Source of the DNA: Candidatus Kapaibacterium sp.
GTDB taxonomy: Bacteria; Bacteroidota; Ignavibacteria; Kapaibacteriales; UBA4661
DNA length: 18,457 nucleotides
Direction of reading: 5' to 3'
Assembly (NCBI GenBank): GCA_025358765.1
Contig: JANYIG010000256.1
Location: 1 to 18,457, forward strand
Position numbers and translations under genes: made by a program. The number at the start of each line of letters is the position of its first letter. The stretch's first letter is position 1. A model generated the notes under the pieces. It worked only from the letters and a program-made list of their open reading frames with translations, made no database searches and had not been told where the DNA came from. This document shows, one piece after another, positions 1,061 to 18,457 of this stretch.

Positions 1061-1134
1061 TCAAGATAAACACAATGTCAGATAACTTCTACTTCAGGCA
1101 CAGTTGCTTGTAAGCTATCCTTAAAACCAATTGC

Positions 1135-2211: not shown

Positions 2212-2223
2212 TATCAAAAATCT

Positions 2224-3201: not shown

Positions 3202-3243
3202 GGCTGTCGGAGGTTTAATTTTCAGACAATTCTTAAAACTCAA

Positions 3244-3298
3244 AAACATGCCTGTCGCACAGCATCATTGCTTGCACGACAGGCATGTTTATTTTTAA
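3244..3298. terminator. Bidirectional rho-independent terminator between convergent AKR (+) and fadD (-) genes
   Basis: Perfect 14-bp stem AAACATGCCTGTCG (3244-3257) pairs with CGACAGGCATGTTT (3277-3290) around a 19-nt loop. It is followed by ATTTTTAA on the + strand and preceded by AAAAA, which gives a U-run for the minus-strand transcript. Confidence 0.7.
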
Positions 3299-3315
3299 TC
3301 ATTCTGAACGCCGTA

Positions 3316-5061: not shown

Positions 5062-5065
5062 GGTT

Positions 5066-5073
5066 CCTCCTCC
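5066..5073 (-). promoter_or_regulatory. Shine-Dalgarno GGAGGAGG for fadD
   Basis: The + strand shows CCTCCTCC at 5066-5073. On the minus strand this reads GGAGGAGG, 4 nt upstream of the ATG at 5061. Confidence 0.6.
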
Positions 5074-5383
5074 GGTTGGGTTGAGATGTTTGGAAATAGA
5101 ATGGTCGGTACGATTTTGGGCATTTGAGAGAACTCCACAACTAAATAGACTGTCCAACGAAGAGAGCCCCATGGAAGGGGGTTGCGAAGCGCTATGTTTT
5201 GTACGCTGTGAAGCTGCGACAGGGGTAAAATACATTACGCCATCGTGAATGTCAATAGAAATTTCCCATAAATAAAAAATGACAAGGTAAAGAACCAATT
5301 GACATCTTCCGATGAGAGAAATTCAAGATTTGGCGCGTCGCAGGTGATAACGCTTGCAGATGTGGCTGCCCTGATGCTCGGCG

Positions 5384-6805
5384 TTATGTTAACGCCTTCT
5401 CCAGATGGTGTGCGTATTGCATCAAGTGCATTTCGTCGAAGTGGTTTGCCTGTAATTGTATTCCTATGGGAAGACCATTGGATGCTGTTCCTGCGGGAAT
5501 GCTGATACCCGGAACGCCGCCTAAGTTTGCCGATACGGTGAAGATGTCACCCAAATACATTGCGAGCGGGTCAGAGGATTTTTCGCCAATTTTGAACGGT
5601 GGCGTGGGATACGACGGCAACGCGAACAAATCTGCTGTTTTGAACATTTGTTTGTAATCGTTGTAAATCAAGCGCCGTACTTTTAATGCCTTCGTGTAAT
5701 ACGCATCATAATAGCCGGACGACAAAACGTAGGTTCCAAGCATGATGCGGCGTTTAACTTCTGCACCAAAACCCTGCGAACGAGTTTTGATGACCATATC
5801 ATCCTCGTCATTTGTTACATCCGCCCGGAAGCCGTAGCGAACACCGTCGTACCGCGATAGGTTTGATGAGGCTTCGGCGGTGGCGATGATGTAATACGTA
5901 GGAATCAGCGCTCCAATATATTTCATTTCATGCGTGACAATCTCTGCGCCCATGCCGCGCAGCGTCCCTAACACTTTGCGGTATGCCAGCAACACGTCAT
6001 CGTCACAACCTCTAAGCTGTTCATCGGGGAGTACCGCAACCGTAAACGTTGCGGGTAGCGGAGCATTGAGTTGCGATGTTGTGTTGAGCGGCGTAAAAGG
6101 GCAACTTGTTGCATCGCGTTCGTCGTTGCCATTAATAGTATCAAAAAGCAAGGCTGCATCTGCCACTGTTGGGGCGAGCGGTCCAATCTGGTCGAGTGAC
6201 GAACCGTAGGCAACCAAGCCGTAACGCGATACACGTCCATATGTCGGTTTTAAACCCACCGCCCCACAAAATGAAGCTGGAAGCCGTACCGAGCCGCCAG
6301 TGTCCGAACCAAGCGCAGCATGGCAAAGTTCTGCCGCGACGCTTGCTGCGGCACCGCCCGATGATCCACCCGGCACATACTCCGGATTAACAGGGTTTTT
6401 GACCGCTCCATATGCAGAGTTTTCATTCGATGAACCCATGGCAAACTCATCCATGTTTGCTTTGCCAATGATGATTGCGCCCGCATTTTTCAGACGTTCC
6501 ACCACCGTTGCATCGTAGATGGGAACATATGTTTCGAGGATTTTGCTGCCACACGACGTGCGGATACCTTTGGTGTTGATATTGTCCTTTAAGGCAATAA
6601 CCATACCTTCAAGCGGGCGCGGATTTCCAGCGGAGAAGCGTGCGTCGGCTTCAGCAGCTTGAGCGCGAGCGCCAGCGGCGTTGACGGAGAGAAGGCAGTT
6701 CAGGTCTTGTTTGGCTGCAATAGTTGCAAGGAAGGTTTCAACAGCTTCGGCACACGTTGTTTTTTTTGCTTCAAGGTCGTTGCGAAACGAGATATATGAT
6801 TTCAT
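5384..6805 (-). CDS. gatA: Glutamyl-tRNA(Gln) amidotransferase subunit A (amidase signature family)
   Basis: 473 aa. Amidase signature GGSSGGAAASVAA plus the Ser-cisSer-Lys context. N-terminus and length are typical of GatA. Its ATG (6805-6803) overlaps the tatB stop in an ATGA arrangement. Confidence 0.85.
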   Translation of the reverse strand: MKSYISFRNDLEAKKTTCAEAVETFLATIAAKQDLNCLLSVNAAGARAQAAEADARFSAGNPRPLEGMVIALKDNINTKGIRTSCGSKILETYVPIYDATVVERLKNAGAIIIGKANMDEFAMGSSNENSAYGAVKNPVNPEYVPGGSSGGAAASVAAELCHAALGSDTGGSVRLPASFCGAVGLKPTYGRVSRYGLVAYGSSLDQIGPLAPTVADAALLFDTINGNDERDATSCPFTPLNTTSQLNAPLPATFTVAVLPDEQLRGCDDDVLLAYRKVLGTLRGMGAEIVTHEMKYIGALIPTYYIIATAEASSNLSRYDGVRYGFRADVTNDEDDMVIKTRSQGFGAEVKRRIMLGTYVLSSGYYDAYYTKALKVRRLIYNDYKQMFKTADLFALPSYPTPPFKIGEKSSDPLAMYLGDIFTVSANLGGVPGISIPAGTASNGLPIGIQLQANHFDEMHLMQYAHHLEKALT

Positions 6806-7269
6806 GCAGGATTCTTCGATGATGGAATGTCGTTGTTATCGTTCTGAGTAGCAGCCGCATTGCGGGCAATAGCGCCTTCTGCGGGCTGAATACGGATGGG
6901 GGTAAGGTGTTGGACTTCGGGCAGCGCCTCTGACTGCACGATATTCATGCTATCAATCGCGCTGGCACTTGCATCTGTGTATTCCCCAAGCGGCATCACG
7001 CCATCGTTTACAGGCTTATCTTCTCGCGCTGACGGCAGGTCGTCGCCCTCTTCCAACAGAGAACGCACCTGCTGAACAGGTTCATTCACGGTTGATTCAA
7101 TTTCTTCTTGCAGTGAGTTCAAATTACGCTGGAACTCCGTCTGAGCCTTGCGAAGTTGCGCCATGCCCTTGCCGAATGATTTCGCCAACTCTGGTAATTT
7201 TTTCGGTCCGAACAGCAGAACAATTGCCAGTAAAATGAAAAGCAGTTCACCGCCGCCAACGTCAAACAT
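6802..7269 (-). CDS. tatB: Twin-arginine translocase subunit TatB-like (TatA/B/E family, long form)
   Basis: 155 aa. MFDVGGGELLFILLAIVLLFGPKKLPELAKSFGKGMAQLRKA... matches the TatB N-terminus (MFDIGFSELL...GP..LP), followed by an amphipathic helix and a long acidic tail. Confidence 0.75.
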   Translation of the reverse strand: MFDVGGGELLFILLAIVLLFGPKKLPELAKSFGKGMAQLRKAQTEFQRNLNSLQEEIESTVNEPVQQVRSLLEEGDDLPSAREDKPVNDGVMPLGEYTDASASAIDSMNIVQSEALPEVQHLTPIRIQPAEGAIARNAAATQNDNNDIPSSKNPA

Positions 7270-7348
7270 AGTTTTTCAATTGACAATGAATAATGGGCAA
7301 TGATTGATAATGCCTTTGGTGTGACGCATTATGAGAATTGGAATCGGC

Positions 7349-7522
7349 TTATTTTTTGACTTCTGCTTTTTCATCTTCGTCGGCAGGCAGTGTTGAAGCT
7401 TTTTTAAATTCTTTCACGCCAGAGCCAAGCCCTTTCATCAGCTCAGGGATTTTTTTTGCACCAAAAAGCAGCACAAGAACAAGCGCGATAACGATAATTT
7501 CGGGTGTTCCGAGACCAAACAT
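7349..7522 (-). CDS. tatA: Twin-arginine translocase subunit TatA
   Basis: The tracked ORF starts at 7609 with an implausible 29-aa extension. An internal ATG at 7522 gives a classic 58-aa TatA: [42 protein letters not shown]... It has no clear Shine-Dalgarno. Confidence 0.75.
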
Positions 7523-7642
7523 GACGGTACTTTCAAAAGGTGATGAAATTGTAAAACGAGAATGGAATACGATGGCAAAGAGAGTGTACTCAAGCATTCT
7601 CTTTTGCAAAATACAAAATTTCAGGCACGTGCGAATGCTGTT

Positions 7643-8161
7643 TTATGAAGCTGGTTCGTAGTACTGATGGTTTCGCAGATATTCCAAGCGGTCTTGAAGT
7701 TGTGCAATCGGCACGAGTAACTTTTCTTTGCCCAAAATCGCATCTTCGCGGTTTTCGTAGATCATTTCTACGTCACGGCTCATCACAATGGCTTCTTCGG
7801 GGCAGGCTTCCTCGCAAAATCCGCAGAAAATGCAGCGCAGCATATTGATTTCAAACTTCACCGGATAGCGTTCTTTCTCGCGGGTAGTGGTCTCAGCAGC
7901 TTGTACTTCAATAGCAAGTGCCGGGCATACCCGTGAACACAGCCCGCATGCTACGCAGCGTTCGCCGGATTCCTCCAGCACAAGTACGGGTCGCCCGCGA
8001 TACGAGCCTTGAGGAACAAAGCGCTCTTCGGGGTACGAGCGCGTCATTTTCGGCTCAAATATATGCTTAAACGTCAGCGCCATACCCTTGGCAATTTCAG
8101 GAAGGTAAATTTTTTCCCAAAATGTCATCCGTTGTGACTCGGTGTTGTGTTTGATGTTCAT
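7643..8161 (-). CDS. nuoI: NADH-quinone oxidoreductase subunit I (2x[4Fe-4S] ferredoxin-type)
   Basis: 172 aa. Two CxxCxxCxxxCP clusters: CVACGLCSRVCP and CIFCGFCEEACP. Full-length NuoI-like architecture. Confidence 0.9.
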   Translation of the reverse strand: MNIKHNTESQRMTFWEKIYLPEIAKGMALTFKHIFEPKMTRSYPEERFVPQGSYRGRPVLVLEESGERCVACGLCSRVCPALAIEVQAAETTTREKERYPVKFEINMLRCIFCGFCEEACPEEAIVMSRDVEMIYENREDAILGKEKLLVPIAQLQDRLEYLRNHQYYEPAS

Positions 8162-8206
8162 AATAATTGAAAAGTCAGGTTTAAAGTCAGAGTAACATTC
8201 AAGAGA

Positions 8207-9262
8207 TTATCGAAGAAATGCCATCACAATCGTTGTCAGAATAATATTCACCAGCGCAAGTGGCATCATTACTCGCCAGCCAAGGTTCATCAATTGGTCG
8301 TAGCGGAAACGTGGCAGCGACCATCGAACCCAAATGAACACGAAGCACATTACCGCTATTTTTGCAAAAAATGTACCGAATTGCAGTAATCCAAGCACAA
8401 TTGAGCCTTCCACAAGACCGATTGGAGCCAGCACCGATGCCGGAATTGGCAACTGCCACCCACCCAAAAACAATGTGGTTGTCATCGCTGCCGAAGCCAC
8501 CATATGCCCGTATTCTGCAAGGAAAAACATGCCGAATTTCATGCCTGAATATTCCGTATGATAGCCGCCTACAAGCTCTGGCTCGGCTTCCGGCAAGTCA
8601 AACGGAGCGCGGTTCGTCTCGGCAAAACCCGCCACAAAAAACACTATAAAACCAAGAGGCTGAAAGAAAAGATTCCATTTCAAATCGGCTTGATTTTTCA
8701 CGATGTCGTTCAAATTCAGCGAACCCGCCATCATAATCACCCCAATCACTGATAATCCCATACAAAGTTCGTAGGAAATCATCTGTGATGCCGACCGTAA
8801 GCCACCTAAGAGCGAAAATTTATTGCTGGATGACCAGCCCGCAAACGTAATCCCATAGACTGCCACCGAACCTACGCCAAACACATAGAGCAGTGCAACA
8901 TTGATGTTTGGTGCAACAGCAAGGTCAATCCGGGTGGTGCCGACCATGATGTAGTTCCCAAATGGTGTGACCGCAAAAGCCGCAACTGCCGTTGTTACAG
9001 CAATAAGTGGCGCAAAAAAGTGAAAGCCTTTATTTGCATCGGTAGGAATAATGTCTTCTTTTAAAAGCAACTTTGCCACATCAGCGAACGGTTGCAAAAT
9101 GCCAAATGGTCCCGTGCGGTTAGGACCAATCCTGTGCTGAATCCACGCAGAAACCTTGCGCTCGTAATACACGCTCACAACAGCGCCCGGTAATACCACC
9201 AAACCCAGCACCAATCCGCCTTTGAGCAGAGAAATAAGAATGAGGAGCAATAATTCAGGCAT
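8207..9262 (-). CDS. nuoH: NADH-quinone oxidoreductase subunit H (membrane subunit, ND1 homologue)
   Basis: 351 aa polytopic membrane protein. YYERKVSAWIQHRIGPNRTGPFGILQPFADVAKL is the canonical NuoH/ND1 N-terminal signature. Confidence 0.9.
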   Translation of the reverse strand: MPELLLLILISLLKGGLVLGLVVLPGAVVSVYYERKVSAWIQHRIGPNRTGPFGILQPFADVAKLLLKEDIIPTDANKGFHFFAPLIAVTTAVAAFAVTPFGNYIMVGTTRIDLAVAPNINVALLYVFGVGSVAVYGITFAGWSSSNKFSLLGGLRSASQMISYELCMGLSVIGVIMMAGSLNLNDIVKNQADLKWNLFFQPLGFIVFFVAGFAETNRAPFDLPEAEPELVGGYHTEYSGMKFGMFFLAEYGHMVASAAMTTTLFLGGWQLPIPASVLAPIGLVEGSIVLGLLQFGTFFAKIAVMCFVFIWVRWSLPRFRYDQLMNLGWRVMMPLALVNIILTTIVMAFLR

Positions 9263-9317
9263 AATCTCAGAAATGTAACGGATGAGTAAAATTCGAGTGC
9301 TTTTGTGAAATTCTCAG

Positions 9318-11216
9318 CTATTCTTTATTTTTTTTGGGATCTATCATCTCCATCAGCTTTAATCCTAACAGCCCGTCTATAGCGTTACCACCACCGTTAC
9401 TGCCTCCGATAAGTATATCGGGTATGAGTTTAATATGTCCTTTAGAGAGTTCTTCGGTAATCTTGTAACGGGTAAAGTTTTCTCCGCCTAAGGCATTTAC
9501 CGCAAGTTCATACGCTTCGGCGGTGGATTTACCGACAGCAAGGATTTTGCCTGCCTCGGCTGTACCTGTCAAAGAAATTTGTTCTGCTTGCGCTGCCGCA
9601 TTTAATTTAATAGCTTCCGATTCCGCTTGTGCTCTTGCTCTTGTGGCTTCGGCTTGGGCAAACGCTCGCATTTTTGTGGCTTCGGCTTCCGCACTTACCG
9701 CAAGTTTTACGCTCGTTGCGTCACCTTCGGCTTTTTTTACGGTTGCGTTTGCGGTACGCTCTGCAATCTCAACGCTTTGTTGAGCCTTGACAATTTCTTT
9801 TTGCATATCGGCGATTGCTGTCTCTTTTTCCATTCCTTGTCGTGTTTCCTGTGCCTGTTTTTGCGTATCATATGTCACTTTTTGTTCTTCGGCTATTTTT
9901 CGATCCGTCAAAGTTTTCATCAATGAATCGGGAGGCGCAATATCGCCAATAAGCGTATCCACGGCGTTCACGTTGTATTCATCCAATACTTTTTTAATGT
10001 GCTCCTTAGCAGATTCTTGTCTTTCTTTACGTGAGCTTAAAAACGCAATAACGTCACTGTCTTGTGCAGAATTACGGAAGTAATTTCCAATCGTCGGTTC
10101 TAATACCTGAGAGACAAGGTTGACCATATTTCCAAATCGTGCAATGACTTTCGGAGCTTCAGTGGTTGGTACGTGAATAATTTGCGCCACGTCAAGATTG
10201 AAGGGGAAGCCGTCTTTGGAGCGCACGGTAATAGTCGAGAGGTTTTTATCAAGATTATGAGCTTCGCTGCGTGCTGATGCCCAATTGAGAACAAGATTTG
10301 TCGTCGGCACCAATTCAACTTTCATAATGTATTTGTTTATGGGATATTTCCCAGGACCAATGGGTTCAAGCCAAACCCCCTTAAATCCCTTTTCGACAAT
10401 ACTTCCATGCTTAAATTCGGTGCCTGTCAAATCGTTTCCCTCTTGACCGATATAGGATATAACAACTCCAACAAATCCAATCGGAATTTCTGTCATTGGA
10501 ATCTCCTCGACTTGCACAGCCCAAGGATTCAGATTGTACGAACCCGCTAAAATTACCTGAGGTTGTAAACCCCTATTCCCGTTATTTTTAAGGAAAATGT
10601 CAAAGTTCTGAAAGTTGTTATGTCCATCAATCAATTCACCCGCTATTTGACCCGCCTCAATCGGCAAACCGTCTAAGGTAGTAATAATACCGACCATACT
10701 TTCTTTAATACGGATCATTTCCGTGACCGAAACCTGGAAGAGCATGGTGTTGATACGATATGAACCAGCAGTGATATACGCTGTTTGTCTGCCTCGTTGT
10801 CCGCCATTATTCAGAAATTTTTCCGCATCCTGAAAATTATCGCATTCAGCACGTTGTCCTAAAATGTTTCCTGTTGGAATTTCAGCGCCGTCTTTTGCTA
10901 AGACCAAGCCAATTTTTCCCTCAGGGATCACCGTAAAACTTTGCATGGTAACATCATATTGCCAAAACCATTTCCCAAAATACAAACCCGGAGCAAGCGT
11001 TTTTGCCTGAAACCCAGCTTCGCCCCGTGTTGCTATGATGCGCCCGTCCGGTAATTCTTTATGCTCGCCGAACAATACAAACTTTTTTGTCACCAATCCG
11101 GTTTTGTCTTCAGGTACTATAACTACCCCAAATAAAAACCGAAGAACATATTTGTAAAGCGCAATACTTACTATCAAAAGAATTGCCCACCAATACGATA
11201 AAAGAAAGGTTTCCAT
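9318..11216 (-). CDS. Flotillin-family (SPFH/band-7) membrane scaffold protein, YqiK/FloT-like
   Basis: 632 aa. N-terminal TM helix followed by an SPFH domain. The C-terminal Ala/Glu-rich coiled coil (AEAEATKMRAFAQAEATRARAQAESEAIKLNAAAQAEQ) and its terminal tail are typical of bacterial flotillins. Confidence 0.85.
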   Translation of the reverse strand: METFLLSYWWAILLIVSIALYKYVLRFLFGVVIVPEDKTGLVTKKFVLFGEHKELPDGRIIATRGEAGFQAKTLAPGLYFGKWFWQYDVTMQSFTVIPEGKIGLVLAKDGAEIPTGNILGQRAECDNFQDAEKFLNNGGQRGRQTAYITAGSYRINTMLFQVSVTEMIRIKESMVGIITTLDGLPIEAGQIAGELIDGHNNFQNFDIFLKNNGNRGLQPQVILAGSYNLNPWAVQVEEIPMTEIPIGFVGVVISYIGQEGNDLTGTEFKHGSIVEKGFKGVWLEPIGPGKYPINKYIMKVELVPTTNLVLNWASARSEAHNLDKNLSTITVRSKDGFPFNLDVAQIIHVPTTEAPKVIARFGNMVNLVSQVLEPTIGNYFRNSAQDSDVIAFLSSRKERQESAKEHIKKVLDEYNVNAVDTLIGDIAPPDSLMKTLTDRKIAEEQKVTYDTQKQAQETRQGMEKETAIADMQKEIVKAQQSVEIAERTANATVKKAEGDATSVKLAVSAEAEATKMRAFAQAEATRARAQAESEAIKLNAAAQAEQISLTGTAEAGKILAVGKSTAEAYELAVNALGGENFTRYKITEELSKGHIKLIPDILIGGSNGGGNAIDGLLGLKLMEMIDPKKNKE

Positions 11217-11252
11217 AATGATATAATAGTTCCGACATTTTTAGCTCATTTG

Positions 11253-11281
11253 CAACGCATCAAATCTTACAACGCATCAAA
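11253..11281. repeat. Perfect 12-bp tandem direct repeat CAACGCATCAAA x2 (5-bp spacer) spanning the DUF2628 stop codon
   Basis: Copies lie at 11253-11264 and 11270-11281, 17 bp start-to-start. On the minus strand the upstream copy encodes the C-terminal F-D-A-L of the DUF2628 protein. The downstream copy lies just after the stop, 37-48 nt upstream of the flotillin ATG. Confidence 0.8.
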
Positions 11282-11794
11282 AAGCGTGTCCGCATCGAAT
11301 GTGTTTATATCGCCTACGTGTCCTGACAATATTTTGAACACCACAGCATCAGCCGCACTGCCAGCAATACCAAGCACTATCACCCACAACAACGATGTGC
11401 CGCCGATTTGACGTAGCGTTGGCGCAAGCATGAGCGGATCGTCTGTACCCATAGTGTTGGCAACATCGCCCACTTTCCGGGTCGCATACCGATAATATAC
11501 CCAATTGCCAAAAATGCCAATCACAATAGACATAAGCAGTGTTGAACTGCGATGGCTGCTATGCGGAGCACTCAAAAAAAGAATATACTTTATTACACGT
11601 GCCGAGCCGAATACGAGTAGTGCCGGAATGTACATTTTACGGTACATCATCCAGTACGCCGAGAAAAAGAATGCCGACCAATTCCAGCTTATCTTCTCGC
11701 TGGAGTTCTCGAATACATCCCACTTTTGCAAATAATGCTCTGAGCGCTCGCCCACAAAAGAAGCAAGGTTTTCATCGCGGATTATGAGTGACAT
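11267..11794 (-). CDS. DUF2628-family small membrane protein
   Basis: The KWDVF...SWNWSAFFFSAYWMMYRKMY motif is characteristic of DUF2628, and two or three predicted TM helices follow. The tracked ORF starts at TTG 11812. The ATG at 11794 is preceded by GGAGGA (+ strand TCCTCC 11799-11804, 4-nt spacer), so start is set there (176 aa). Confidence 0.65.
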   Translation of the reverse strand: MSLIIRDENLASFVGERSEHYLQKWDVFENSSEKISWNWSAFFFSAYWMMYRKMYIPALLVFGSARVIKYILFLSAPHSSHRSSTLLMSIVIGIFGNWVYYRYATRKVGDVANTMGTDDPLMLAPTLRQIGGTSLLWVIVLGIAGSAADAVVFKILSGHVGDINTFDADTLFDAL

Positions 11795-11831
11795 GAAATC
11801 CTCCAGATGCAAGGGTGTACAGTAAATGAAG

Positions 11832-13598
11832 TTAATTTGGCTTCAACGTATGTGATTCGTATTCATACATCGCAAATGGCTCGCTCTCAGCCCCGCCAAA
11901 CACAACACCTTTGCGCTCGTCGAGCAATTCATATGTGAGTCCTGCAAACGCCGGAATAGTATCCACAATTTCCTCAAACACATCTTCCGACACGCGGTAA
12001 CGCCATTTATTTTTGTCTGCACCCATCGCTAGCGCTAATGCTGTGATCGTACCCCAGCTTTGACGGGCACTACGGCGTTCGCCATGCGTCCAACGGTCGT
12101 TTGGAGCGCCAAATTTGTCTAATCGGCTCATTTTTAATCCCATGCGCCGCTCGTTTTCTACCGTGATGATAGACGGGGAGAGGTGTTGCACGCGGCTCTC
12201 GAAGTTTGTGTAGGTGCCTTCCAATTCAGCGTAAGTTGCCGCGGCAAAGACTACGTGCGCCTTTGCGGTTATTGGCGTGTGATTATACGCATGAACGATG
12301 ATGAGCTGGAGCTTGCTTAAAACCTCGTCGGGCAGATGCAAACGGTCATCTTCCATGACGTACAGCACTTTGACGGAGCCGGAATTGAGTTTGGCAAGAA
12401 TAGCATCCAGATTGGAAGCGGCTTTTAGCCCCAATGCCGTTGCGCCTGTTGAATTTGGTGATTTATCGCTGTGGCGCAATTTCACATCACCAAAAGACGG
12501 GTCTTCATATTTTAAAAATTCTACATTGCTTGTGCCAAGAACATCCTTCGCAAACCGTGCAAGCGCGTAATTGTCCTCGTTTGTGGCATGTGCAGAGCCA
12601 AGAACAATAATCTCATTGCCGCTGAATTGCTTTAATTGCTCGGCTGCAAAGGCAGTAGCTTCTTGCCATTCAACCTCCGTTGATGTAACGTTTTTGCGGA
12701 TAAGCGGTTTTTGAATGCGGTTCGCGTTCACGTAGTCATACTGTGTGAGCCGCCCGTAGTCGCACATCCAAAATTCATTCACTTCAAGATTCGTATTTGG
12801 CTCAAGGCGCAAAATTTCGTTGTTGCGAACGCCTGCTTGAACATTGCAGCCACGCGCACAGCCAGTGCAAATCGTTTCGTTAAAGCTCATATCCCACACG
12901 CGAGCTTTGAAGCGGAAGTCACGGCTCGTGAGCGCCCCAACGGGACAGATTTCGATAACGTTCATGGAATATGGGCTATCGAACTCCGTGCCGGGGAAGG
13001 TTTCGATAGTCGTGTGATCGCCGCGTTGTACGAACGTCAACACGGGCTGTTCTGCCTCTTCGGTTGCGTAGCGGATGCAGCGCGAACACGAGATGCAGCG
13101 CTCACCGTCGAACAATACATTCGGACCAAGCGGGACACGTTTGTCTTTGTGATTTTTTGTCTCCTCGAAGCGGCTCTCGCCCTTAGAGTGACGGAAGCTG
13201 TACTCTTGTAATTTACATTGTCCTGCTTCGTCGCATATCGGGCAATCGAGCGGGTGATTGATGAGCAAAAACTCCATGACAGCTTCTTGTGCGGATTCTA
13301 CCTTTTTGTCAGCAATACGAACGTGCATCCCCTCCGACACGGGTGTTGCACAGGCGATGGAGAGTTTGGGCATGTACAAAATAACAGGATTACCCTGTTC
13401 ATCGAGCGCAGGTGTGCGATCAGGATTCATCTTGGGCATTCCAACATCGACAAGGCACATGCGGCAGTTTCCGGCGACCGAAAGCGATGGATGCCAACAA
13501 AAATGGGGTACGTCAAACCCGTTCTCCAATGCTGCTTGAATAATCGTTTGCCCGTCTTTGGCTTCGATGGCGCGACCGTCAATAGTTACACGCGGCAT
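11832..13598 (-). CDS. nuoG: NADH-quinone oxidoreductase subunit G (short form; 2Fe-2S + 4Fe-4S N-terminal domain)
   Basis: MPRVTIDGRAIEAKDGQTIIQAALENGFDVPHFCWHPSLSVAGNCRMCLVDVG is the NuoG N-terminal [2Fe-2S] signature. It is followed by a His-ligated [4Fe-4S] (HPLDCPICDEAGQC) and a [4Fe-4S] CxxCxxC motif. The tracked ORF's 68-aa upstream extension is non-homologous, so start is set at ATG 13598. The 588-aa product is shorter than a typical NuoG. Confidence 0.8.
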   Translation of the reverse strand: MPRVTIDGRAIEAKDGQTIIQAALENGFDVPHFCWHPSLSVAGNCRMCLVDVGMPKMNPDRTPALDEQGNPVILYMPKLSIACATPVSEGMHVRIADKKVESAQEAVMEFLLINHPLDCPICDEAGQCKLQEYSFRHSKGESRFEETKNHKDKRVPLGPNVLFDGERCISCSRCIRYATEEAEQPVLTFVQRGDHTTIETFPGTEFDSPYSMNVIEICPVGALTSRDFRFKARVWDMSFNETICTGCARGCNVQAGVRNNEILRLEPNTNLEVNEFWMCDYGRLTQYDYVNANRIQKPLIRKNVTSTEVEWQEATAFAAEQLKQFSGNEIIVLGSAHATNEDNYALARFAKDVLGTSNVEFLKYEDPSFGDVKLRHSDKSPNSTGATALGLKAASNLDAILAKLNSGSVKVLYVMEDDRLHLPDEVLSKLQLIIVHAYNHTPITAKAHVVFAAATYAELEGTYTNFESRVQHLSPSIITVENERRMGLKMSRLDKFGAPNDRWTHGERRSARQSWGTITALALAMGADKNKWRYRVSEDVFEEIVDTIPAFAGLTYELLDERKGVVFGGAESEPFAMYEYESHTLKPN

Positions 13599-13614
13599 AA
13601 ATTTTTTCCAAGTG

Positions 13615-13650
13615 TGAGAGTATGTTGAGAGTATTACGATGTGAGAGTGT
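13615..13650. repeat. Three direct copies of TGAGAGT(A/G)T immediately upstream of the nuoG start
   Basis: Copies at 13615-13623, 13626-13634 and 13642-13650. On the minus strand they read ACTCTCA and lie 17-52 nt upstream of the nuoG ATG. No Shine-Dalgarno is present. Confidence 0.6.
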
Positions 13651-14046
13651 TTGCGTGTTTGAAGTGCAAACCTACTCGAAGATACCAGATTCAGCGCAAA
13701 TAGGCAAAAAAAGTTCCACACAGGTTCCGTGTATCTCGCATGATTGCTGCCTAAGATGGTAATTGTTAAAACGGTGTTAAGACCGCTAAAAACATGCTCC
13801 ACAAGATAGTGAATATTGTATTTTACAAAAAATTTATCTACTTTAGTTTAATAGTTAATCTTCCATACTACTCGCCGAAGCACCCATCTGCAACGACGTA
13901 GCACCAAACTCCAGACACCAAACTTTATCATTTTATCATCCCAAACTCAACAATGACGCTCTCTGCAACCATATTCTCCGCAATATTTTCTACAATTTCC
14001 GACAGTAACTCTTTCTATTTGTTTACCATTTTTAAAGGTTTTGTTC

Positions 14047-14175
14047 ATGCGTAATGTCCCTACGCTTGCTGTGCGGCGTGGTTTCCGAACCGCCCTGTAC
14101 GCAATGCTACCAACGACCCTTTTTTTTAGTTTGTTTTGTAGTCTTTTGCTTCTGAGCAATGTCTCAAGTAATGCT
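14047..14175 (+). other. Predicted Sec signal peptide of the S8 peptidase
   Basis: MRNVPTLAVRRGFRTALYAMLPTTLFFSLFCSLLLLSNVSSNA|QS. It has a positive n-region, a hydrophobic h-region and an AxA-like site (SNA). An alternative start at Met20 is possible. Confidence 0.5.
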
Positions 14176-17100
14176 CAGAGTATATCATCAAGTACATCTT
14201 CAAGCCCAAAACTTGGACGAGCGCAATTTATAGCCGCGAACCCACGTCCGTCGCAGGATAGCTATTTTATAACGGTTCCGGGCAAACGGCAGCCTGACGG
14301 AACCTACTCGCTTGGCTCGGTTACGGAAGTCAAACGTCCTGCAAAAGGAACCTACGTCAAAGGTTCTGTCATTCTGAAAACGAAACAGCTTTATCCAGTA
14401 GATACAAAGTCGAGCAAAAATGTTGCAAGCCTCCAATCCTCTGTATTGATGACCACATTGGATGGTTTCACCGTAAAAAACATTCGCCCCGTATTCCCCG
14501 ACCTCAATGCTGGCAAGCGCTTGAGCGGGATTGCCTCGGACAATAACGGCATGGGTAACGTCTATGAAGTGCGTTACGATGCGCCCACTGACCCCTTCGA
14601 TGTGTGCCGCGAACTCAGCATGAATCCTGAAGTGGAGTATGCTGAACCGTGTTATATCTACAAACAACAAGCCGTACCCGGCGCACCGAACGATTCCCTT
14701 TACGCCAAACAGTATGCGTGGCAACGGGTGCAGGCGGAAGCCGCATGGGATATGGTGAAAGGAGAGACCACTGTCCTTATCGCTATTGTGGATAGCGGTG
14801 TGGATTGGGAACATGAAGACCTTGCCGCGAACATCTGGACAAATCCGGGCGAATCGGGCTTGGACAAAAATGGCAAAGACAAACGTTTTAATGGTATAGA
14901 TGATGACGGCAACGGCAAAATAGACGACTGGCATGGTTGGGATTTTATCGGTGCGCCAGACGATGCCGATCCCTATTTCCGCGAGGACAACGACCCGAAA
15001 CCCCGCTTCGACGAGCACAATGCCGATCTTTTCGACACACAAACGCACGGGACGCACGTAGCAGGCATAGCCGGTGCGGTGGCGAATAACGGTAAAGGCG
15101 GAGCCGGTGCGAGCTTTAACAATTGTAAAATACTGCCGCTCAAGGCAGGCTCTGATAAAGACGACCAAGGCTCAATTTTTTCCTCTGGCGCATATGCCGC
15201 CATCCTCTATGCCGCACAAATGGGTGCGAAGGTGGTCAATAATAGTTGGGGCGGTTCCGGTGGAGGAAGTCAATTTCAGCAAGATGTTATTAACACGGCA
15301 ACCGCAATGGGACTGTTGGTGGTTTCTTCGGCTGGTAATGGTGATGCGAATAACAATAACGACCTGATGGATTTTGTGTATTACCCAGCTTCGTATGATA
15401 ATGTTTTGTCCGTGGCAGCAAGCGATGTCAACGACGTAGCTGTGAGTAAACTTAATGACAATTATTTTGGTACAACACTTGGCATAAAAACAACAGTATT
15501 TGCGCCGGGTTCTAATATTTTGAGTACGTTTATTGGTAATCGGTATGGTATTTTTAGCGGTACGTCTATGTCATCACCGCTTGTAACAGGCATTGCAGGG
15601 CTTGTACGAAAGGTGCATCCGGAATGGACACCACGCCAAGTGTTGCAGCAAATTCGCTCTACGTCGGACAATGTTTTACGTCTTGGTGCATTCCAAAACG
15701 CGACCAACACCAACAGTGACCGCCCAACCCAGCAGTATGGGCGCATCAATGCGTTTCGTGCGGTTACGGTGAATAGTACGTTGAATTCCGGCGATAATGT
15801 CGTGCCGGGCATCAGCTTTACCCGTGCCTTCACGACGGCGCAAGACGGCATTGTGAACGCATATCAACCGCTCCGCTTAATTTTGGCAGTGCAAAACTTT
15901 CTCTCGAATGCGTCCGATGTGAGTGTTACGCTCACGCCGATTACGGCGAGCAATGCCGTTGCGTTGCAGCCGACGGCTTCGATTGGTACGCTCAACACAC
16001 TTCAAGAAAAACCCGCTGTATTCGACATTCAACTTCAACCGGGTGCTGCACGAACGGGCAATGTGGATTTTATGGTGACCTACCGTAGTGGCTCTGGCGC
16101 TACTGCTTACGTTAATTACGAGCGTATTCGCGTTCCGTATAACATTTCTGCCTCACGGACTCAACAGCTTATAACGTCAGCGTTAGTGGATTTTGGGTCA
16201 ACATCGCCATCGTCGCCAGTGACGAGTACAGTGAGCTTCCGAAACATCGGAGCACAAAGCATAACGGTTTCGACAGCAACTGTCACTGGGACAAATGCTG
16301 GTGATTTTTCGTTTGTAAGCCCGTTCAGCCCCATAACGGTGGCTGCCAACGGCACAGCCAGTGCTACGCTTCGCTTTACGCCGAGTAGCACAGCCAGTAC
16401 GACCGCTCGTGCGGCAACCCTTGACATCACGGCACTTTCAAGCACGGCGGCAACCATTGGTGGGATAGCCGTTGCATCGGGTTACGGTTTTGAAAGTGTT
16501 CGCGGAACATATTCAGAAATTACGGGCGGCGTGGTACTCGGCAAAGGAATAGTAGTAGATGACGAAGAATATGCGTTGGAGTTCGGTTTTCCATTCTTGT
16601 TTGCCGGCACGACCTACACAAAATTGACGATTAACTCGAATGGTTTTGTGGCATTTGCGCCGAGCGGAACGACGGTCGGGCAGCAGCAAAATATTCAAGC
16701 ACCTTTGAGCGATGTGTTCTCTGCTGGCGGCATGGTTTCAGCGTTTTCGAGCGACCTTCAGCTTTCGGCAAGCGGCGAAATTCAGGCAAAATCGGAAGGC
16801 ACAACGCCGAACCGCGTCTTTACAGTGCAATGGAAAAATTGTACATTTTTTGATGAAACGTTGGGAGCGCAGGGCGGTCCGTCGCCGAATGGAAACCTCA
16901 ACTTCCAGATTCGTATTTATGAAGGCTCGAACAATATCGAATTCCGCTATGGTACAATGACCTACGGTGCTTCGGCTCGTGTTCGCACGGACGAATTTAT
17001 TGGTCCGGGCGTTGGGCAGGTGGGTTTGCGAAGCTCTTCCACCAATGATTTTTTGAACCGACGCGTGACTCCGCTTGATCGCAATACATGGGATGGTTCG

Positions 17101-18457
17101 GTTGACGGCACGGCAAATACTGACCCGTGTGTTATTCAAGGGACACTCGCTCCGGCATCAGGGCTGATTTATCGCTGGCGACCACAAGACGCATCGGCAA
17201 CGAACGTGGCTACGTCGTTCCAGCGCAGCATACCGCTTGCAGGTGTTTTTCGGACGGGTGGCTTTTTGTCAACAGCCGTCACGGGGCTGAATTTCGGAAC
17301 CGTGTCGAGTACAACGTCGTCAATACTTCCAGTTCTCGTTACGAATTCCGGGACGGCTCCCGTTACGGTGAAGGCACTCACGATTGTCACATCGCCGACG
17401 CTGAGTGCAACCGAATACCAGCTTGCCGATCCGCTTTCAACGCCGCTCCCGTTCACGATTCAGCCGGGTGGCACGGCAACGTTCCGTGTGAAATTTACAC
17501 CTTCAACAGAGGCTTCGCGTCAAACAACAGGGCGTGGTCTGGCGGATGGGACATATACTATCGCCTCACGTCCGGCAGCATTGCAGATTGAAAGTGACGC
17601 GCCGACGCTCAGTATTCCCCTCAATGGCGTTGGAACGAATCCTGCACCCGCAACCCCAGCACGGGCATTGAATATCGGATTCACTGGCAGTGCGGATTTT
17701 AATCCCGCAACACCGATTTATAGCCGTTTCGACCGCATCCCACAAAATAGCTCGGGGCAAATCAATCACGTAGTCATTGGATCGGAACGTTTTGCTACGG
17801 ACATCGAACTCCGCAGCCGTGGCACACAAGCATTGACAATAACAGGTGCGACGATTGTTGGCACAGGCGCTTCAGAGTTTACCATTCAGGAGCCGAAATT
17901 TCCTGTCACGATTGACGTTGGGCGGTCTGTACTAATGAAAATCCGCTTTGCGCCTCGTGTTGCAGGCGAAAAACTCGTATATGTCACGTTCACCGGCGAC
18001 CTCCAGAAGCAACAAATCTTGGGTTTTGGAAGCAACGCCGCGCTGCCTCGCTTTATCGCTGTAACACCTCCAAACGATGGCAGCACGACGATTCCGGCTC
18101 CAGAAGCAGTGTTGGACATCTTCCCAGTTCCTGTACCCTCGGCAATCGTTGGAACATCGGAGCGCTTTACTATTCGCTTGCAGCACAGTACAAGTGCCAC
18201 GGCAGATGCTACGATTCGCGGCGTGACGTTTAGCGGTGCTGCTCAGGCGGAGTTTGTGGTTGACACAAAAAGCTCTCTGGCAGTTAAATTTCCGCTTACT
18301 CTCACTCCTGGGCAATCGCGGGTAATTCCCATTTTGTTCACACCGCAATCTGTTGGCGAGCGCAAAGCAGTGCTGACACTTTTGCCAGACGGCGACCCAA
18401 GCACTGAAAGCGTGAGCCTAACAGGTACAGGGACAAAAAATCAAGATATTGCTCTGG
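14047..18457 (+). CDS. Secreted multidomain subtilisin-like serine peptidase (MEROPS S8), 3'-partial and continuing beyond the window
   Basis: Frame (14047 mod 3) is open with no stop for 4411 nt to the window end. The N-terminus has an RR n-region, a hydrophobic core and SNA|QS. The catalytic triad sits in the canonical S8 order: Asp in AIVDSGVD (14791-14793), His in HGTHVAG (15055-15057), Ser in GTSMSSP (15565-15567), with the NNSWGG oxyanion Asn. A Bacteroidota-type Ca-loop is present: NGIDDDGNGKIDDWHGWDF. The gene is absent from the supplied ORF track because no stop occurs in the window. Confidence 0.85.
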   Translation, partial: MRNVPTLAVRRGFRTALYAMLPTTLFFSLFCSLLLLSNVSSNAQSISSSTSSSPKLGRAQFIAANPRPSQDSYFITVPGKRQPDGTYSLGSVTEVKRPAKGTYVKGSVILKTKQLYPVDTKSSKNVASLQSSVLMTTLDGFTVKNIRPVFPDLNAGKRLSGIASDNNGMGNVYEVRYDAPTDPFDVCRELSMNPEVEYAEPCYIYKQQAVPGAPNDSLYAKQYAWQRVQAEAAWDMVKGETTVLIAIVDSGVDWEHEDLAANIWTNPGESGLDKNGKDKRFNGIDDDGNGKIDDWHGWDFIGAPDDADPYFREDNDPKPRFDEHNADLFDTQTHGTHVAGIAGAVANNGKGGAGASFNNCKILPLKAGSDKDDQGSIFSSGAYAAILYAAQMGAKVVNNSWGGSGGGSQFQQDVINTATAMGLLVVSSAGNGDANNNNDLMDFVYYPASYDNVLSVAASDVNDVAVSKLNDNYFGTTLGIKTTVFAPGSNILSTFIGNRYGIFSGTSMSSPLVTGIAGLVRKVHPEWTPRQVLQQIRSTSDNVLRLGAFQNATNTNSDRPTQQYGRINAFRAVTVNSTLNSGDNVVPGISFTRAFTTAQDGIVNAYQPLRLILAVQNFLSNASDVSVTLTPITASNAVALQPTASIGTLNTLQEKPAVFDIQLQPGAARTGNVDFMVTYRSGSGATAYVNYERIRVPYNISASRTQQLITSALVDFGSTSPSSPVTSTVSFRNIGAQSITVSTATVTGTNAGDFSFVSPFSPITVAANGTASATLRFTPSSTASTTARAATLDITALSSTAATIGGIAVASGYGFESVRGTYSEITGGVVLGKGIVVDDEEYALEFGFPFLFAGTTYTKLTINSNGFVAFAPSGTTVGQQQNIQAPLSDVFSAGGMVSAFSSDLQLSASGEIQAKSEGTTPNRVFTVQWKNCTFFDETLGAQGGPSPNGNLNFQIRIYEGSNNIEFRYGTMTYGASARVRTDEFIGPGVGQVGLRSSSTNDFLNRRVTPLDRNTWDGSVDGTANTDPCVIQGTLAPASGLIYRWRPQDASATNVATSFQRSIPLAGVFRTGGFLSTAVTGLNFGTVSSTTSSILPVLVTNSGTAPVTVKALTIVTSPTLSATEYQLADPLSTPLPFTIQPGGTATFRVKFTPSTEASRQTTGRGLADGTYTIASRPAALQIESDAPTLSIPLNGVGTNPAPATPARALNIGFTGSADFNPATPIYSRFDRIPQNSSGQINHVVIGSERFATDIELRSRGTQALTITGATIVGTGASEFTIQEPKFPVTIDVGRSVLMKIRFAPRVAGEKLVYVTFTGDLQKQQILGFGSNAALPRFIAVTPPNDGSTTIPAPEAVLDIFPVPVPSAIVGTSERFTIRLQHSTSATADATIRGVTFSGAAQAEFVVDTKSSLAVKFPLTLTPGQSRVIPILFTPQSVGERKAVLTLLPDGDPSTESVSLTGTGTKNQDIAL
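16180..16478 (+). other. Ig-like beta-sandwich domain (ASH / choice-of-anchor-D-like), copy 1, within the S8 peptidase
   Basis: LVDFGSTSPSSPVTSTVSFRNIGAQSITVSTATVTG...FSFVSPFSPITVAANGTASATLRFTPSS...AATLDITALSS. The F-G-V-G-S...N-G...L-I...PG-S..V-F-P...G...A-L-I pattern is shared with the copies at 17240-18440. Confidence 0.45.
16479..17185 (+). other. NIDO-like (nidogen N-terminal-like) domain candidate within the S8 peptidase
   Basis: EEYALEFGFPFLFAGTTYTKLTINSNGFVAF...IQAPLSDVFSAGG...NLNFQIRIYEGSNNIEFRYG resembles the NIDO consensus (LPFxFPFYGxxYxxLYVNNNGxISF ... IAPFWADVD ... TFQAVLxTDGxxSFAIFxY). Recalled from memory, not searched. Confidence 0.35.
17240..18440 (+). other. Three further tandem Ig-like (ASH / choice-of-anchor-D-like) domains at the C-terminal end of the visible S8 peptidase
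   Basis: Approximate spans 17240-17640, 17650-18035 and 18040-18440. Each has the form ...FG.V..G.S...L.V.N.G.A.V.V.A.TIV...EF.........P..I.PG.S..I.V.F.P...G.R.A.L.L... ending in a G-x-G motif. Confidence 0.45.

What the first reader, a model, noticed from the sequence alone, without database searches (positions are those of the whole stretch)
14047..18457. Giant secreted S8 subtilase with an unusual C-terminal domain train, missed by the ORF track
A single frame stays open for more than 1470 codons and runs off the window. It contains a propeptide-like N-domain, a complete S8 catalytic domain with a Bacteroidota-type calcium loop, and a beta-sandwich domain at about 15790-16150. Then come an Ig-like domain, a roughly 235-aa NIDO-like domain, and three more Ig-like ASH/choice-of-anchor-D-type domains. 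ASH-type domains are best known from eukaryotic ciliary/centrosomal proteins and bacterial adhesins. Finding them on a protease, together with a NIDO-like module, suggests a surface-anchored or substrate-targeting protease of novel architecture. Because the frame has no stop in the window, the supplied ORF track omitted it. The track instead shows antisense ORFs such as 14200-15168 and 16161-16457.
Basis: partly seen in the sequence, partly recalled or inferred. Interest (0 to 1): 0.65.

Follow-up and report, generated by a model that had tools for sequence, protein, structure and literature searches.

The report
Truncated giant T9SS-type subtilisin protease gene
This is the first three-quarters of a real gene for a very large secreted subtilisin-type protease from an uncultured Kapaibacteria-like bacterium, cut off because the assembled contig ends; the protease belongs to a family already in public databases, and its one poorly understood part is a 240-residue module shared with gliding-motility adhesins.

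Summary
An ATG at 14047 opens a frame that stays open for 1470 codons to the window end. It encodes a signal peptide, a pro-region, an intact S8 catalytic domain (D249/H334/N399/S506) and six all-beta domains: a beta-sandwich, an Ig-like domain, a 240-aa module and three more ASH/choice-of-anchor-D Ig-like domains.

The window is a whole 18,457-bp MAG contig, so the truncation is an assembly break. A syntenic orthologue (P0002, 1956 aa) and at least 25 other full-length relatives from Kapaibacteria/Ignavibacteria MAGs run about 440-460 aa further. They end in a type IX secretion (T9SS) sorting domain. The architecture is therefore not novel: it is an existing, database-annotated family of T9SS-type cargo subtilases.

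"NIDO-like" is only partly right. NIDO is the only Pfam family that recurs on this module, but it matches just the first third of the model, and the window's copy scores below threshold (17 vs 25 bits). The module is clearly homologous to the N-terminus of the F. johnsoniae RemA-family adhesin RemZ. It occurs in about 22,000 protein clusters, has no Pfam or NCBIfam model and no solved structure. The "Bacteroidota-type" calcium loop is shared with deseasin MCP-01 and is not phylum-specific. Overall: an ordinary new member of a known kind.

The parts
14047..18457 (+). 5' 77% of a pre-pro-subtilase gene (1470 codons, no stop; about 440 codons missing beyond the contig end)
   Evidence: Open frame. 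Collinear homologues of 1780-2020 aa. In the syntenic orthologue P0002, aa 1516 aligns with window aa 1470, leaving 440 aa. The window is a whole 18,457-bp contig.
14047..14175 (+). Sec signal peptide, aa 1-43 (basic n-region R2/R10/R11/R14, hydrophobic core aa 16-36, SNA|QS cleavage-like site)
   Evidence: Sequence read directly. The Kyte-Doolittle 15-residue window peaks at 2.13 at aa 25-39. No dedicated predictor was available.
14176..14727 (+). N-terminal pro-region, aa 44-227 (putative intramolecular chaperone/inhibitor)
   Evidence: Only sub-threshold hits: Fervidolysin_NPro-like at 17.3 bits against 21, and Peptidase_S8_N at 16.7 against 30.5, both at aa 165-215. The region is conserved across the family and 49% identical to the orthologue.
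14728..15756 (+). S8 (subtilisin-like) catalytic domain, aa 228-570: D249 (14791-14793), H334 (15046-15048), oxyanion N399 (15241-15243), S506 (15562-15564)
   Evidence: PF00082 at E 6.7e-48. The closest solved chains are deseasin MCP-01 3vv3 (E 2e-35), AK.1 protease and thermitase. The motifs DSGVD, HGTHVAG, NNSWGG and GTSMSSP align with MCP-01.
14890..14946 (+). Asp-rich calcium-loop-type motif NGIDDDGNGKIDDWHGWDF (aa 282-300), inside an enlarged Asp-His segment of about 85 aa
   Evidence: Nearly invariant in the family. Aligns with GIDNDGNGYIDDVHG of MCP-01. Calcium binding itself is inferred, not tested.
15811..16143 (+). Post-catalytic beta-sandwich domain, aa 589-699
   Evidence: Eight strands with pLDDT 80-90 in model m45a4ff6e0350. 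No Pfam family even at E<=10. Conserved in all long and short paralogues.
16168..16452 (+). Ig-like domain 1 (ASH/HYDIN-VesB type, weak), aa 708-802
   Evidence: HYDIN_VesB_CFA65-like_Ig E 5.5e-4, Cep192_D4, ASH and DUF1573, all sub-threshold on their own. All-beta in the model. The four choice-of-anchor D stretches reported (only the best, aa 1241-1314, was located) equal the number of Ig-like domains.
16471..17193 (+). 240-aa RemZ-N-terminal-like / distantly NIDO-like all-beta module, aa 809-1049
17215..17637 (+). Ig-like domain 2 (ASH), aa 1057-1197, with a disordered internal loop at aa 1156-1171
   Evidence: ASH best stretch at aa 1079-1156. Model strands and a low-pLDDT loop.
17788..18045 (+). 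Ig-like domain 3 (choice-of-anchor D / ASH type), aa 1248-1333; the conserved SRFDR segment at aa ~1225-1230 may belong to it
   Evidence: NF012200 best stretch at aa 1241-1314. Model strands.
18124..18435 (+). Ig-like domain 4 (Cep192_D4 / HYDIN-VesB / ASH type), aa 1360-1463
   Evidence: Cep192_D4 at aa 1372-1462 and HYDIN_VesB_CFA65-like_Ig at aa 1386-1460. Model strands.
14200..15168 (-). Antisense shadow ORF (322 aa), not a gene
   Evidence: Listed. No Pfam match. It lies wholly opposite the S8 catalytic domain, which matches its family at E 6.7e-48.

Best explanation
The region encodes the N-terminal ~77% of a ~1,900-aa pre-pro-subtilase from an uncultured Kapaibacteria-lineage bacterium (Bacteroidota/Ignavibacteria group). 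The gene is truncated only because the MAG contig ends.

Proposed mechanism:
1. The Sec pathway exports the protein using the aa 1-43 signal peptide (sequence features shown).
2. The pro-region assists folding and keeps the enzyme inactive until it is cleaved off (inferred from weak similarity and from general subtilase biology).
3. The catalytic domain is an active serine endopeptidase with an intact D249/H334/S506 triad and N399 oxyanion residue (residues shown; activity inferred).
4. Six beta domains follow in the window. The orthologue then has one more ASH-like domain, two cohesin-like domains and a type-A T9SS C-terminal sorting domain.
5. The whole protein is therefore most likely passed through the type IX secretion system and left on, or released from, the cell surface (inferred by orthology; the C-terminus itself is not in the window).
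6. The Ig-like train acts as a stalk or spacer. The RemZ-N-like/NIDO-like module probably acts as a ligand- or surface-binding head that brings the protease to polymeric substrates (inferred; no direct evidence).

The gene diverges much faster than its housekeeping neighbours, as expected for an exposed surface protein.
For: - The frame is open for 1470 codons.
- S8 model at E 6.7e-48. The triad and oxyanion motifs align with deseasin MCP-01.
- ASH, HYDIN-VesB, Cep192_D4 and choice-of-anchor D are all above their cut-offs.
- The train model shows six beta domains. Its best Foldseek hits are chains of the ciliary central apparatus, the structure for which the ASH/HYDIN-type Pfam families are named.
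- There are 5089 homologues. At least 26 are full-length and collinear, and most carry PF18962.
- The homologues extend a median of 458 aa past the window end. That extension contains Por_Secre_tail above its cut-off in three of three tested.
- Locus L083 is syntenic (OmpA-GatA-TatA-TatA-NuoI-NuoH-orf-NuoG, then the divergent protease), which makes P0002 (1956 aa, with CTD) the positional orthologue.
- Neighbouring genes are 74-87% identical to L083, against 48% for the protease.
- All relatives come from Kapaibacterium, Ignavibacteria or Bacteroidota MAGs.
- T9SS-cargo S8 peptidases with autoinhibitory propeptides have been shown experimentally in Bergeyella cardium (PMC11982257).
Against: - The C-terminus, and therefore the sorting signal, of this particular gene is not in the window. 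It could not be recovered from any collection.
- No T9SS component genes are visible in the 18 kb.
- The pro-region matches no propeptide family above threshold.
- The signal peptide was judged by eye and by hydropathy only.
Confidence: 0.85

Rival explanations
1. The protein is primarily a surface adhesin or cell-surface structural protein. On this view the S8 domain serves only for self-maturation or is secondary, and the Ig-like train plus the RemZ-like module are the functional business end.
For: Two thirds of the protein is non-catalytic beta domains. The 240-aa module is shared with the RemA-family gliding adhesin RemZ. It typically sits at the N-terminal tip of giant multi-domain T9SS cargo proteins, often in several copies.
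Against: The catalytic residues and surrounding motifs are strictly conserved across the family. The S8 domain is the most conserved part against the orthologue (59% against 39-52% for the train), which argues that catalysis is under the strongest selection. Short paralogues keep S8, the beta-sandwich, Ig1, the module and the CTD but drop the rest of the train.
Confidence: 0.1
2. The long frame is an assembly chimera or a decaying pseudogene, not a single functional gene.
For: It comes from a metagenome-assembled contig and is cut at the contig end. No identical protein is on record.
Against: There are no stops in 1470 codons (chance about 3e-33). The alignment with many independent homologues is collinear and covers 93-99% of the query. 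The same gene sits at the same syntenic position in another genome. Every domain folds confidently. The region has no DNA repeats that could cause misassembly.
Confidence: 0.03
3. The protease is secreted but not through T9SS: this lineage's copy may have lost or replaced the C-terminal sorting domain, so the enzyme is released or anchored by another route.
For: The C-terminus is unseen. A few full-length relatives (P0004, P0007, P0025, P0026) have no PF18962 in their precomputed annotation. The orthologue's CTD scores only just above the cut-off (27.6 against 27).
Against: P0004 and P0007, which lack a precomputed PF18962, still end in CTD-like sequences (...SPNPAS/SPNPVS...GTYFLTL...). The CTD is present in the syntenic orthologue and in long, medium and short paralogues alike.
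Confidence: 0.07

Closest known systems
Kapaibacteria/Ignavibacteria 'S8 family serine peptidase' long-form family (e.g. P0002 in GCA_053499435.1; P0014, P0017 named by NCBI)
   Same: The domain order is the same from signal peptide to Ig-like domain 4, with collinear alignment over 93-99% of the query. P0002 sits at the same syntenic position next to nuoG.
   Different: Identity is only 38-48%, although the neighbouring housekeeping genes are 74-87% identical. The window's copy lacks its last ~440 aa because of the contig end.
T9SS-cargo subtilases of Bacteroidota (e.g. KP-43-subfamily SpBcA/B/C of Bergeyella cardium, PMC11982257)
   Same: S8 peptidase with an N-terminal propeptide; putative T9SS cargo (abstract).
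   Different: The domain train differs, judging from the Pfam composition seen here: the window protein has a ~900-aa train of ASH-type Ig domains plus the RemZ-like module. Its catalytic domain is closest to MCP-01, AK.1 and thermitase; KP-43 does not appear in that list.
Deseasin MCP-01 (PDB 3vv3)
   Same: It is the closest solved catalytic domain (E 2e-35). It shares the GID(D/N)DGNGxIDD(W/V)HG loop and all catalytic motifs.
   Different: MCP-01 lacks two insertions present here (LDKNGKDKRF and YFREDNDPKPRFDEHNADL). From my own knowledge, it has a different, much shorter C-terminal extension and is not a T9SS substrate.
RemA/RemZ gliding-motility adhesins of Flavobacterium johnsoniae (RemZ = chain D of PDB 8gl6)
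   Same: The N-terminal ~170 residues of RemZ match the profile of the window's 240-aa module at E 3.4e-17. RemZ is a type-A T9SS substrate (PMC10994853).
   Different: In RemZ and most other carriers the module is at the extreme N-terminus. Here it is internal, downstream of a protease. RemZ has no S8 domain. Only the RemZ CTD is resolved, so there is no experimental structure for the module.
NIDO (nidogen-like) domain, Pfam PF06119
   Same: It is the only Pfam family that recurs on the module (6 of 68 copies), always at the same place: the FxF-G-x-Y...SNGF(I/L)xF region.
   Different: The match covers only profile positions 2-58 of 186. The window's copy scores 17 bits against the cut-off of 25, and only one of 68 copies reaches the cut-off (25.8 bits). 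The rest of the module has no detectable NIDO similarity.
VesB-type proteases with a C-terminal HYDIN/VesB-like Ig domain (Pfam PF22544)
   Same: A secreted bacterial serine protease followed by an ASH/HYDIN-type Ig-like domain. The Pfam family that matches here (48.5 bits) is named after VesB.
   Different: From my own knowledge, VesB is a trypsin-fold (S1) protease with a single Ig domain and a GlyGly-CTERM signal. The window protein is a subtilase with at least four such domains and, by orthology, a T9SS signal.

Membership tests
Peptidase family S8 (subtilases), Pfam PF00082 | Match to the family model above the curated cut-off | tested here: met
   163.9 bits against 21.8, aa 242-553.
Peptidase family S8 (subtilases), Pfam PF00082 | Catalytic triad in the order Asp-His-Ser, plus the oxyanion Asn, in the canonical motifs | tested here: met
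   D249 (DSGVD), H334 (HGTHVAG), N399 (NNSWGG) and S506 (GTSMSSP) align with DTGVD, HGTHVSG, NNSWGG and GTSMATP of deseasin MCP-01. They are nearly invariant in the family.
Peptidase family S8 (subtilases), Pfam PF00082 | Peptidase activity | not testable with these tools
   Needs expression and an enzyme assay.
S8 propeptide (Inhibitor_I9 / Fervidolysin_NPro-like / Peptidase_S8_N) | Match to a propeptide model above its cut-off | tested here: inconclusive
   PF22148 scores 17.3 against 21 and PF16361 scores 16.7 against 30.5, both at aa 165-215. Inhibitor_I9 was not reported.
Type IX secretion system cargo (type-A CTD) | N-terminal Sec signal peptide | tested here: met
   Basic n-region, a hydrophobic core of about 20 residues (KD peak 2.13) and an SNA|Q site. 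This is by inspection; no SignalP-type tool was available.
Type IX secretion system cargo (type-A CTD) | C-terminal Por_Secre_tail (PF18962/TIGR04183) domain | not testable with these tools
   The C-terminus lies beyond the contig end, and the extension attempts failed. The domain is present above its cut-off in the syntenic orthologue P0002 (27.6 against 27) and in P0001 and P0014 (29.4 and 35.5 bits).
Type IX secretion system cargo (type-A CTD) | Host genome encodes the T9SS core (GldK/L/M/N, SprA/Sov, PorV) | not tested
   None of these genes is in the 18-kb window. The rest of the genome was not available.
ASH / HYDIN-VesB-CFA65 Ig-like / choice-of-anchor D domains | Matches above the curated cut-offs | tested here: met
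   PF15780 at 38.4 against 27; PF22544 at 48.5 against 25.5; PF22073 at 54.9 against 35.5. NF012200 at 83.5 against 45, in four stretches.
ASH / HYDIN-VesB-CFA65 Ig-like / choice-of-anchor D domains | Ig-like beta-sandwich fold resembling solved ASH-domain proteins | tested here: met
   The train model is all-beta. Its best Foldseek hits are chains of the ciliary central apparatus (E down to 9e-24). TM-scores are low, as expected for flexible multi-domain chains.
NIDO (PF06119) | Match above the gathering score (25 bits) over most of the 186-position model | tested here: not met
   The window's copy scores 17.0 bits over profile 2-57. Among 68 family copies, 6 give a hit and one reaches 25.8 bits, again over positions 2-58 only.
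RemA/RemZ N-terminal module (unnamed family) | Significant profile match to the N-terminal region of RemZ (Fjoh_0803) | tested here: met
   The A1 profile matches 8gl6_D aa 20-191 at E 3.4e-17 and 65.7 bits. The paper identifies the trapped substrate in these complexes as RemZ.
TANFOR (TIGR02542) N-terminal domain of Bacteroidota polymorphic toxins | Match to TIGR02542 | tested here: not met
   No NCBIfam hit for any of the 28 module copies at E<=1.

The most novel reading that the evidence does not exclude
The 240-aa module (window 16471-17193) may represent a very large domain family that no database has yet modelled. It has about 22,000 cluster representatives, typically caps the N-terminus of giant T9SS cargo proteins including the RemA/RemZ gliding adhesins, is only distantly related to the first third of animal NIDO, and has no solved structure or close fold neighbour. 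Its placement inside a protease here would be an unusual domain shuffle. The module could be the ligand-binding head that targets such surface proteins, which would link bacterial T9SS adhesins evolutionarily to the metazoan nidogen/mucin/tectorin NIDO domain.
Probability: 0.3. Interest if true: 0.45.

Novelty: new member of a known kind. Interest (0 to 1): 0.25.

Why it matters
As a gene call it matters mainly for annotation. A 4.4-kb coding region at a contig edge was missed and replaced by spurious antisense ORFs. It should be annotated as a partial S8 peptidase.

Biologically it adds one divergent member to an expanded family of giant T9SS-type surface proteases in Kapaibacteria. These are probably part of how these uncultured bacteria degrade extracellular protein.

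The more useful by-product concerns the RemZ-like/NIDO-like module. It is abundant (about 22,000 clusters), confidently foldable, unmodelled in Pfam and NCBIfam, and without a solved structure. Defining it would improve the annotation of thousands of large Bacteroidota surface proteins, including gliding-motility adhesins.

Tried and rejected
- Recovering the missing 3' end. An exact 51-mer from the window end found nothing in genome contigs or metagenome contigs. A look-up of the SPFH ORF product found no record. The Logan contigs carrying the identical GatA extend only in the opposite direction. No identical or near-identical protease fragment is in the protein collection; the best hit is 47%.
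- TANFOR (TIGR02542) as the identity of the module: no hit.
- Synteny among the 80 GTDB loci: none. Synteny was found only later, through the GatA link to L083.
- A Pfam identity for the post-catalytic beta-sandwich (aa 572-708): none even at E<=10.
- Rfam, DNA tandem repeats in the gene and the promoter/terminator scan of the upstream region gave nothing informative.
- The original RemA paper (PMC3393505) is not held.
- A literature search for NIDO together with T9SS or Bacteroidetes: none of the eight papers listed contained 'NIDO domain'.
Full report

Yes. Translating 14047-18457 on the + strand gives 1470 codons without a stop, running off the window. The nearest upstream in-frame stop is at 13954-13956. 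The ATG at 14047 is preceded only by one alternative TTG at 14020 (sequence). With the window's base composition, a random frame would stay open that long with probability about 3e-33.

The ORF lister omits ORFs that run off an end. Neither has a Pfam match, and they lie opposite sequence that matches protein families very strongly, so they are shadow ORFs.

A search with the window's GatA found an identical protein whose longest contig is exactly 18,457 bp. The window is therefore an entire metagenome-assembled contig, and the gene is cut by an assembly break rather than by anything biological.

**2. What the frame encodes**

| Part | Residues | Evidence |
|---|---|---|
| Signal peptide | 1-43 | Basic n-region, ~20-residue hydrophobic core, SNA\|QS site |
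| Pro-region | 44-227 | Only sub-threshold propeptide hits at aa 165-215 |
| S8 catalytic domain | 228-570 | PF00082 at 163.9 bits, aa 242-553 |
| Beta-sandwich | 589-699 | Model only; no Pfam match even at E<=10 |
| Ig-like 1 | 708-802 | Weak ASH/HYDIN-VesB hits; all-beta in the model |
| 240-aa module | 809-1049 | See section 4 |
| Ig-like 2 | 1057-1197 | ASH best stretch at aa 1079-1156 |
| Ig-like 3 | 1248-1333 | Choice-of-anchor D best stretch at aa 1241-1314 |
| Ig-like 4 | 1360-1463 | Cep192_D4 and HYDIN-VesB |

- **Catalytic domain.** D249, H334, N399 and S506 sit in canonical motifs. They align with those of the closest solved relative, deseasin MCP-01 (3vv3, E 2e-35), followed by AK.1 protease and thermitase.
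- **Asp-His segment.** It is enlarged (about 85 residues). It carries the Asp-rich motif NGIDDDGNGKIDDWHGWDF, which is nearly invariant in the family. The motif aligns with GIDNDGNGYIDDVHG of MCP-01. From my own knowledge MCP-01 is a Pseudoalteromonas enzyme, so the loop is real but 'Bacteroidota-type' is not an apt label.
- **Domain train.** An AlphaFold model of aa 560-1470, built on 18 full-length homologues (mean pLDDT 80), resolves the six all-beta domains above, separated by low-confidence linkers.
- **Ig-like domains.** Over the whole protein they exceed the curated cut-offs of ASH, HYDIN_VesB_CFA65-like_Ig and Cep192_D4 and of choice-of-anchor D (83.5 bits against 45, four stretches). 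The train model's best Foldseek hits are chains of the ciliary central-pair apparatus (E down to 9e-24), followed by alpha-2-macroglobulin and complement MG-domain chains. This is consistent with an ASH/HYDIN-type Ig train.
- The region has no DNA-level tandem repeats.

**3. Relatives, taxonomy and the missing end**

- **Family size.** The protein has 5089 detectable homologues. The top 26 clusters (1780-2020 aa) align collinearly over 93-99% of the query at 38-47% identity. Most carry PF18962 (Por_Secre_tail), and several are named 'S8 family serine peptidase' from Candidatus Kapabacteria or Bacteroidota MAGs.
- **Paralogues.** Shorter forms exist. One of ~1,590 aa covers about half the query. 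One of ~1,100 aa covers aa ~1-1050 and consists of S8, the beta-sandwich, Ig1 and the module followed directly by the CTD. Long and short forms occur in the same MAGs (L001 with L011; L002 with L007), so the family is expanded in this lineage.
- **Taxonomy.** A scan of GTDB representative genomes returned only Kapaibacterium, Ignavibacteria, Bacteroidota and Chlorobiota-type MAGs. The window's GatA is 81-82% identical to its two best non-identical hits (one from JGI/Logan, one from NCBI), and about 70% identical to proteins labelled Kapabacteria.
- **Orthologue.** The NCBI hit sits on the same 130,245-bp contig as protease homologue P0002. Locus L083 shows OmpA-GatA-TatA-TatA-NuoI-NuoH-small ORF-NuoG and then the divergently transcribed P0002, which is the same arrangement as the window. 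P0002 (1956 aa) is therefore the positional orthologue.
- **Missing end.** Window aa 1470 aligns with P0002 aa 1516, leaving 440 residues. Across 27 full-length relatives the overhang has a median of 458 residues. In three relatives that overhang contains one more ASH-like domain, two weak cohesin-like domains and a Por_Secre_tail above its cut-off: 29.4, 27.6 and 35.5 bits against 27. The full protein is thus predicted to be about 1,900 aa and to end in a type-A T9SS sorting domain. This is inference by orthology; I could not recover the actual 3' end.
- **Rate of divergence.** The housekeeping neighbours are 74-87% identical between the two genomes. The protease is 48% identical overall: 59% in the catalytic domain and 39-52% in the train. 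That pattern is typical of exposed surface proteins.

**4. The 'NIDO-like' module**

- **Pfam.** Scanned alone, aa 802-1051 hits only NIDO, at 17 bits (cut-off 25), over profile positions 2-57 of 186. In an alignment of 28 copies from the protease family (A1), 2 copies touch NIDO. Among 40 diverse copies from unrelated proteins (A3), 4 do. NIDO is the only family hit by more than one copy. One copy reaches 25.8 bits, again only over positions 2-58. The link to NIDO therefore looks like genuine but local remote similarity. The window's copy does not qualify as a NIDO domain.
- **Clear homologue.** A profile of A1 matches the N-terminal residues 20-191 of PDB chain 8gl6_D at E 3.4e-17. The PDB labels that chain RemA. 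The paper identifies the trapped substrate in these complexes as RemZ (Fjoh_0803), a RemA-homologous gliding adhesin and type-A T9SS substrate, of which only the CTD is resolved (PMC10994853).
- **Distribution.** An exhaustive profile search of 1.84 billion cluster representatives finds 21,922 proteins at E<=1e-3 and 2,108 at E<=1e-30. Among the top 144, 104 have their first copy starting within the first 80 residues. Proteins carry 1-13 copies, have a median length of about 2,000 aa, and many copies comprise only the first ~180 profile positions.
- **Partners.** Ten shorter representatives show no Pfam family over the module. Their other domains are Por_Secre_tail, Ig_7 (CHU_C-associated), TSP_3, GEVED and dockerin.
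- **Other models.** NCBIfam, including TANFOR/TIGR02542, gives nothing.
- **Conclusion.** The module is a widespread, apparently unmodelled domain typical of T9SS cargo. What is unusual here is only its internal position behind a protease.

**5. Mechanism**

- **Shown:** an intact subtilase active site, secretion-type N-terminus features, a train of beta domains, and orthologues ending in a T9SS CTD.
- **Inferred:** Sec export; propeptide-assisted folding and autoinhibition, as demonstrated for T9SS-cargo S8 peptidases in Bergeyella cardium (PMC11982257); T9SS translocation with CTD removal and surface attachment or release; and the Ig train acting as a stalk, with the RemZ-like module as a binding head.
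- **Rivals:** adhesin-first function, assembly artefact or pseudogene, and non-T9SS export. All are less well supported; see the rival list.

**6. Verdict**

The claim of novel architecture is not supported, because the architecture is a conserved, publicly annotated family, and ASH/VesB-type Ig domains on bacterial proteases have precedent. This is a new, divergent, truncated member of a known kind. Interest is low to moderate. The most interesting residue is the abundant, structure-less RemZ-N/NIDO-like module.

Noticed in passing
window 1-18457: The window is an entire MAG contig. An identical GatA (P0270) is on record with a longest contig of exactly 18,457 bp. Logan assemblies SRR20627849 and SRR23617167 contain the same organism, so reads exist from which the contig could be extended.
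   Followed up: partly
window 46-912 (+): The OmpA-family ORF at the left edge is the 3' part of a larger gene cut by the contig start. In Logan contig L081 the same gene is complete (742 aa; OMP_b-brl_2 plus OmpA; L081 9093-11321).
   Followed up: partly
window 7643-13802 (-): The nuo gene run is interrupted. nuoG (11832-13802) is followed by a DUF2628 ORF (11267-11812) and a 632-aa SPFH/Band-7 protein (9318-11216) before nuoH and nuoI. The syntenic relative L083 has only a 209-aa ORF between nuoG and nuoH, so the SPFH gene looks like a lineage-specific insertion.
   Followed up: partly
window 13601-13802 (-): The mechanical NuoG ORF is probably over-extended at its 5' end. Homology to the L083 NuoG starts at ORF residue 68, the first Pfam domain starts at residue 71, and a terminator-like hairpin (13733-13717, - strand) lies inside the extension. 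The intergenic region upstream of the protease gene is then about 445 nt rather than 244 nt.
   Followed up: partly
window 6802-7609 (-): There are two tandem TatA/E-type genes: 6802-7269, and a small ORF at about 7349-7609 that is called as an 82-aa TatA_B_E gene in L081 and L082. They sit between gatA and nuoI, and the arrangement is conserved in L083.
   Followed up: no
window 14047-18457 vs L083 10001-15871: The protease is only 48% identical to its positional orthologue, while the flanking GatA, NuoI, NuoH and NuoG are 74-87% identical. This secreted protein is evolving much faster than its neighbours.
   Followed up: yes
P0126-P0269 (representative library hits): The RemZ-N/NIDO-like module occurs in about 22,000 protein clusters, in proteins of up to 7,268 aa and in up to 13-14 copies per protein. 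It usually starts right after the signal peptide, and many copies are a shorter ~180-residue version. No Pfam or NCBIfam model covers it.
   Followed up: partly
L001/L011, L002/L007; P0007/P0029; P0022/P0043: Kapaibacteria-type MAGs carry several paralogues of this protease in long (~1,900 aa), medium (~1,590 aa) and short (~1,100 aa) forms. Some pairs have the same recorded contig length, which may mean they share a contig. This indicates a lineage-specific expansion.
   Followed up: no
L083 15942-16778 (+): Immediately downstream of the orthologous protease gene lies a 278-aa predicted outer-membrane beta-barrel protein (weak OMP_b-brl_2 hit). The corresponding region is beyond the window end. 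Whether this protein is functionally linked to the protease is unknown.
   Followed up: no
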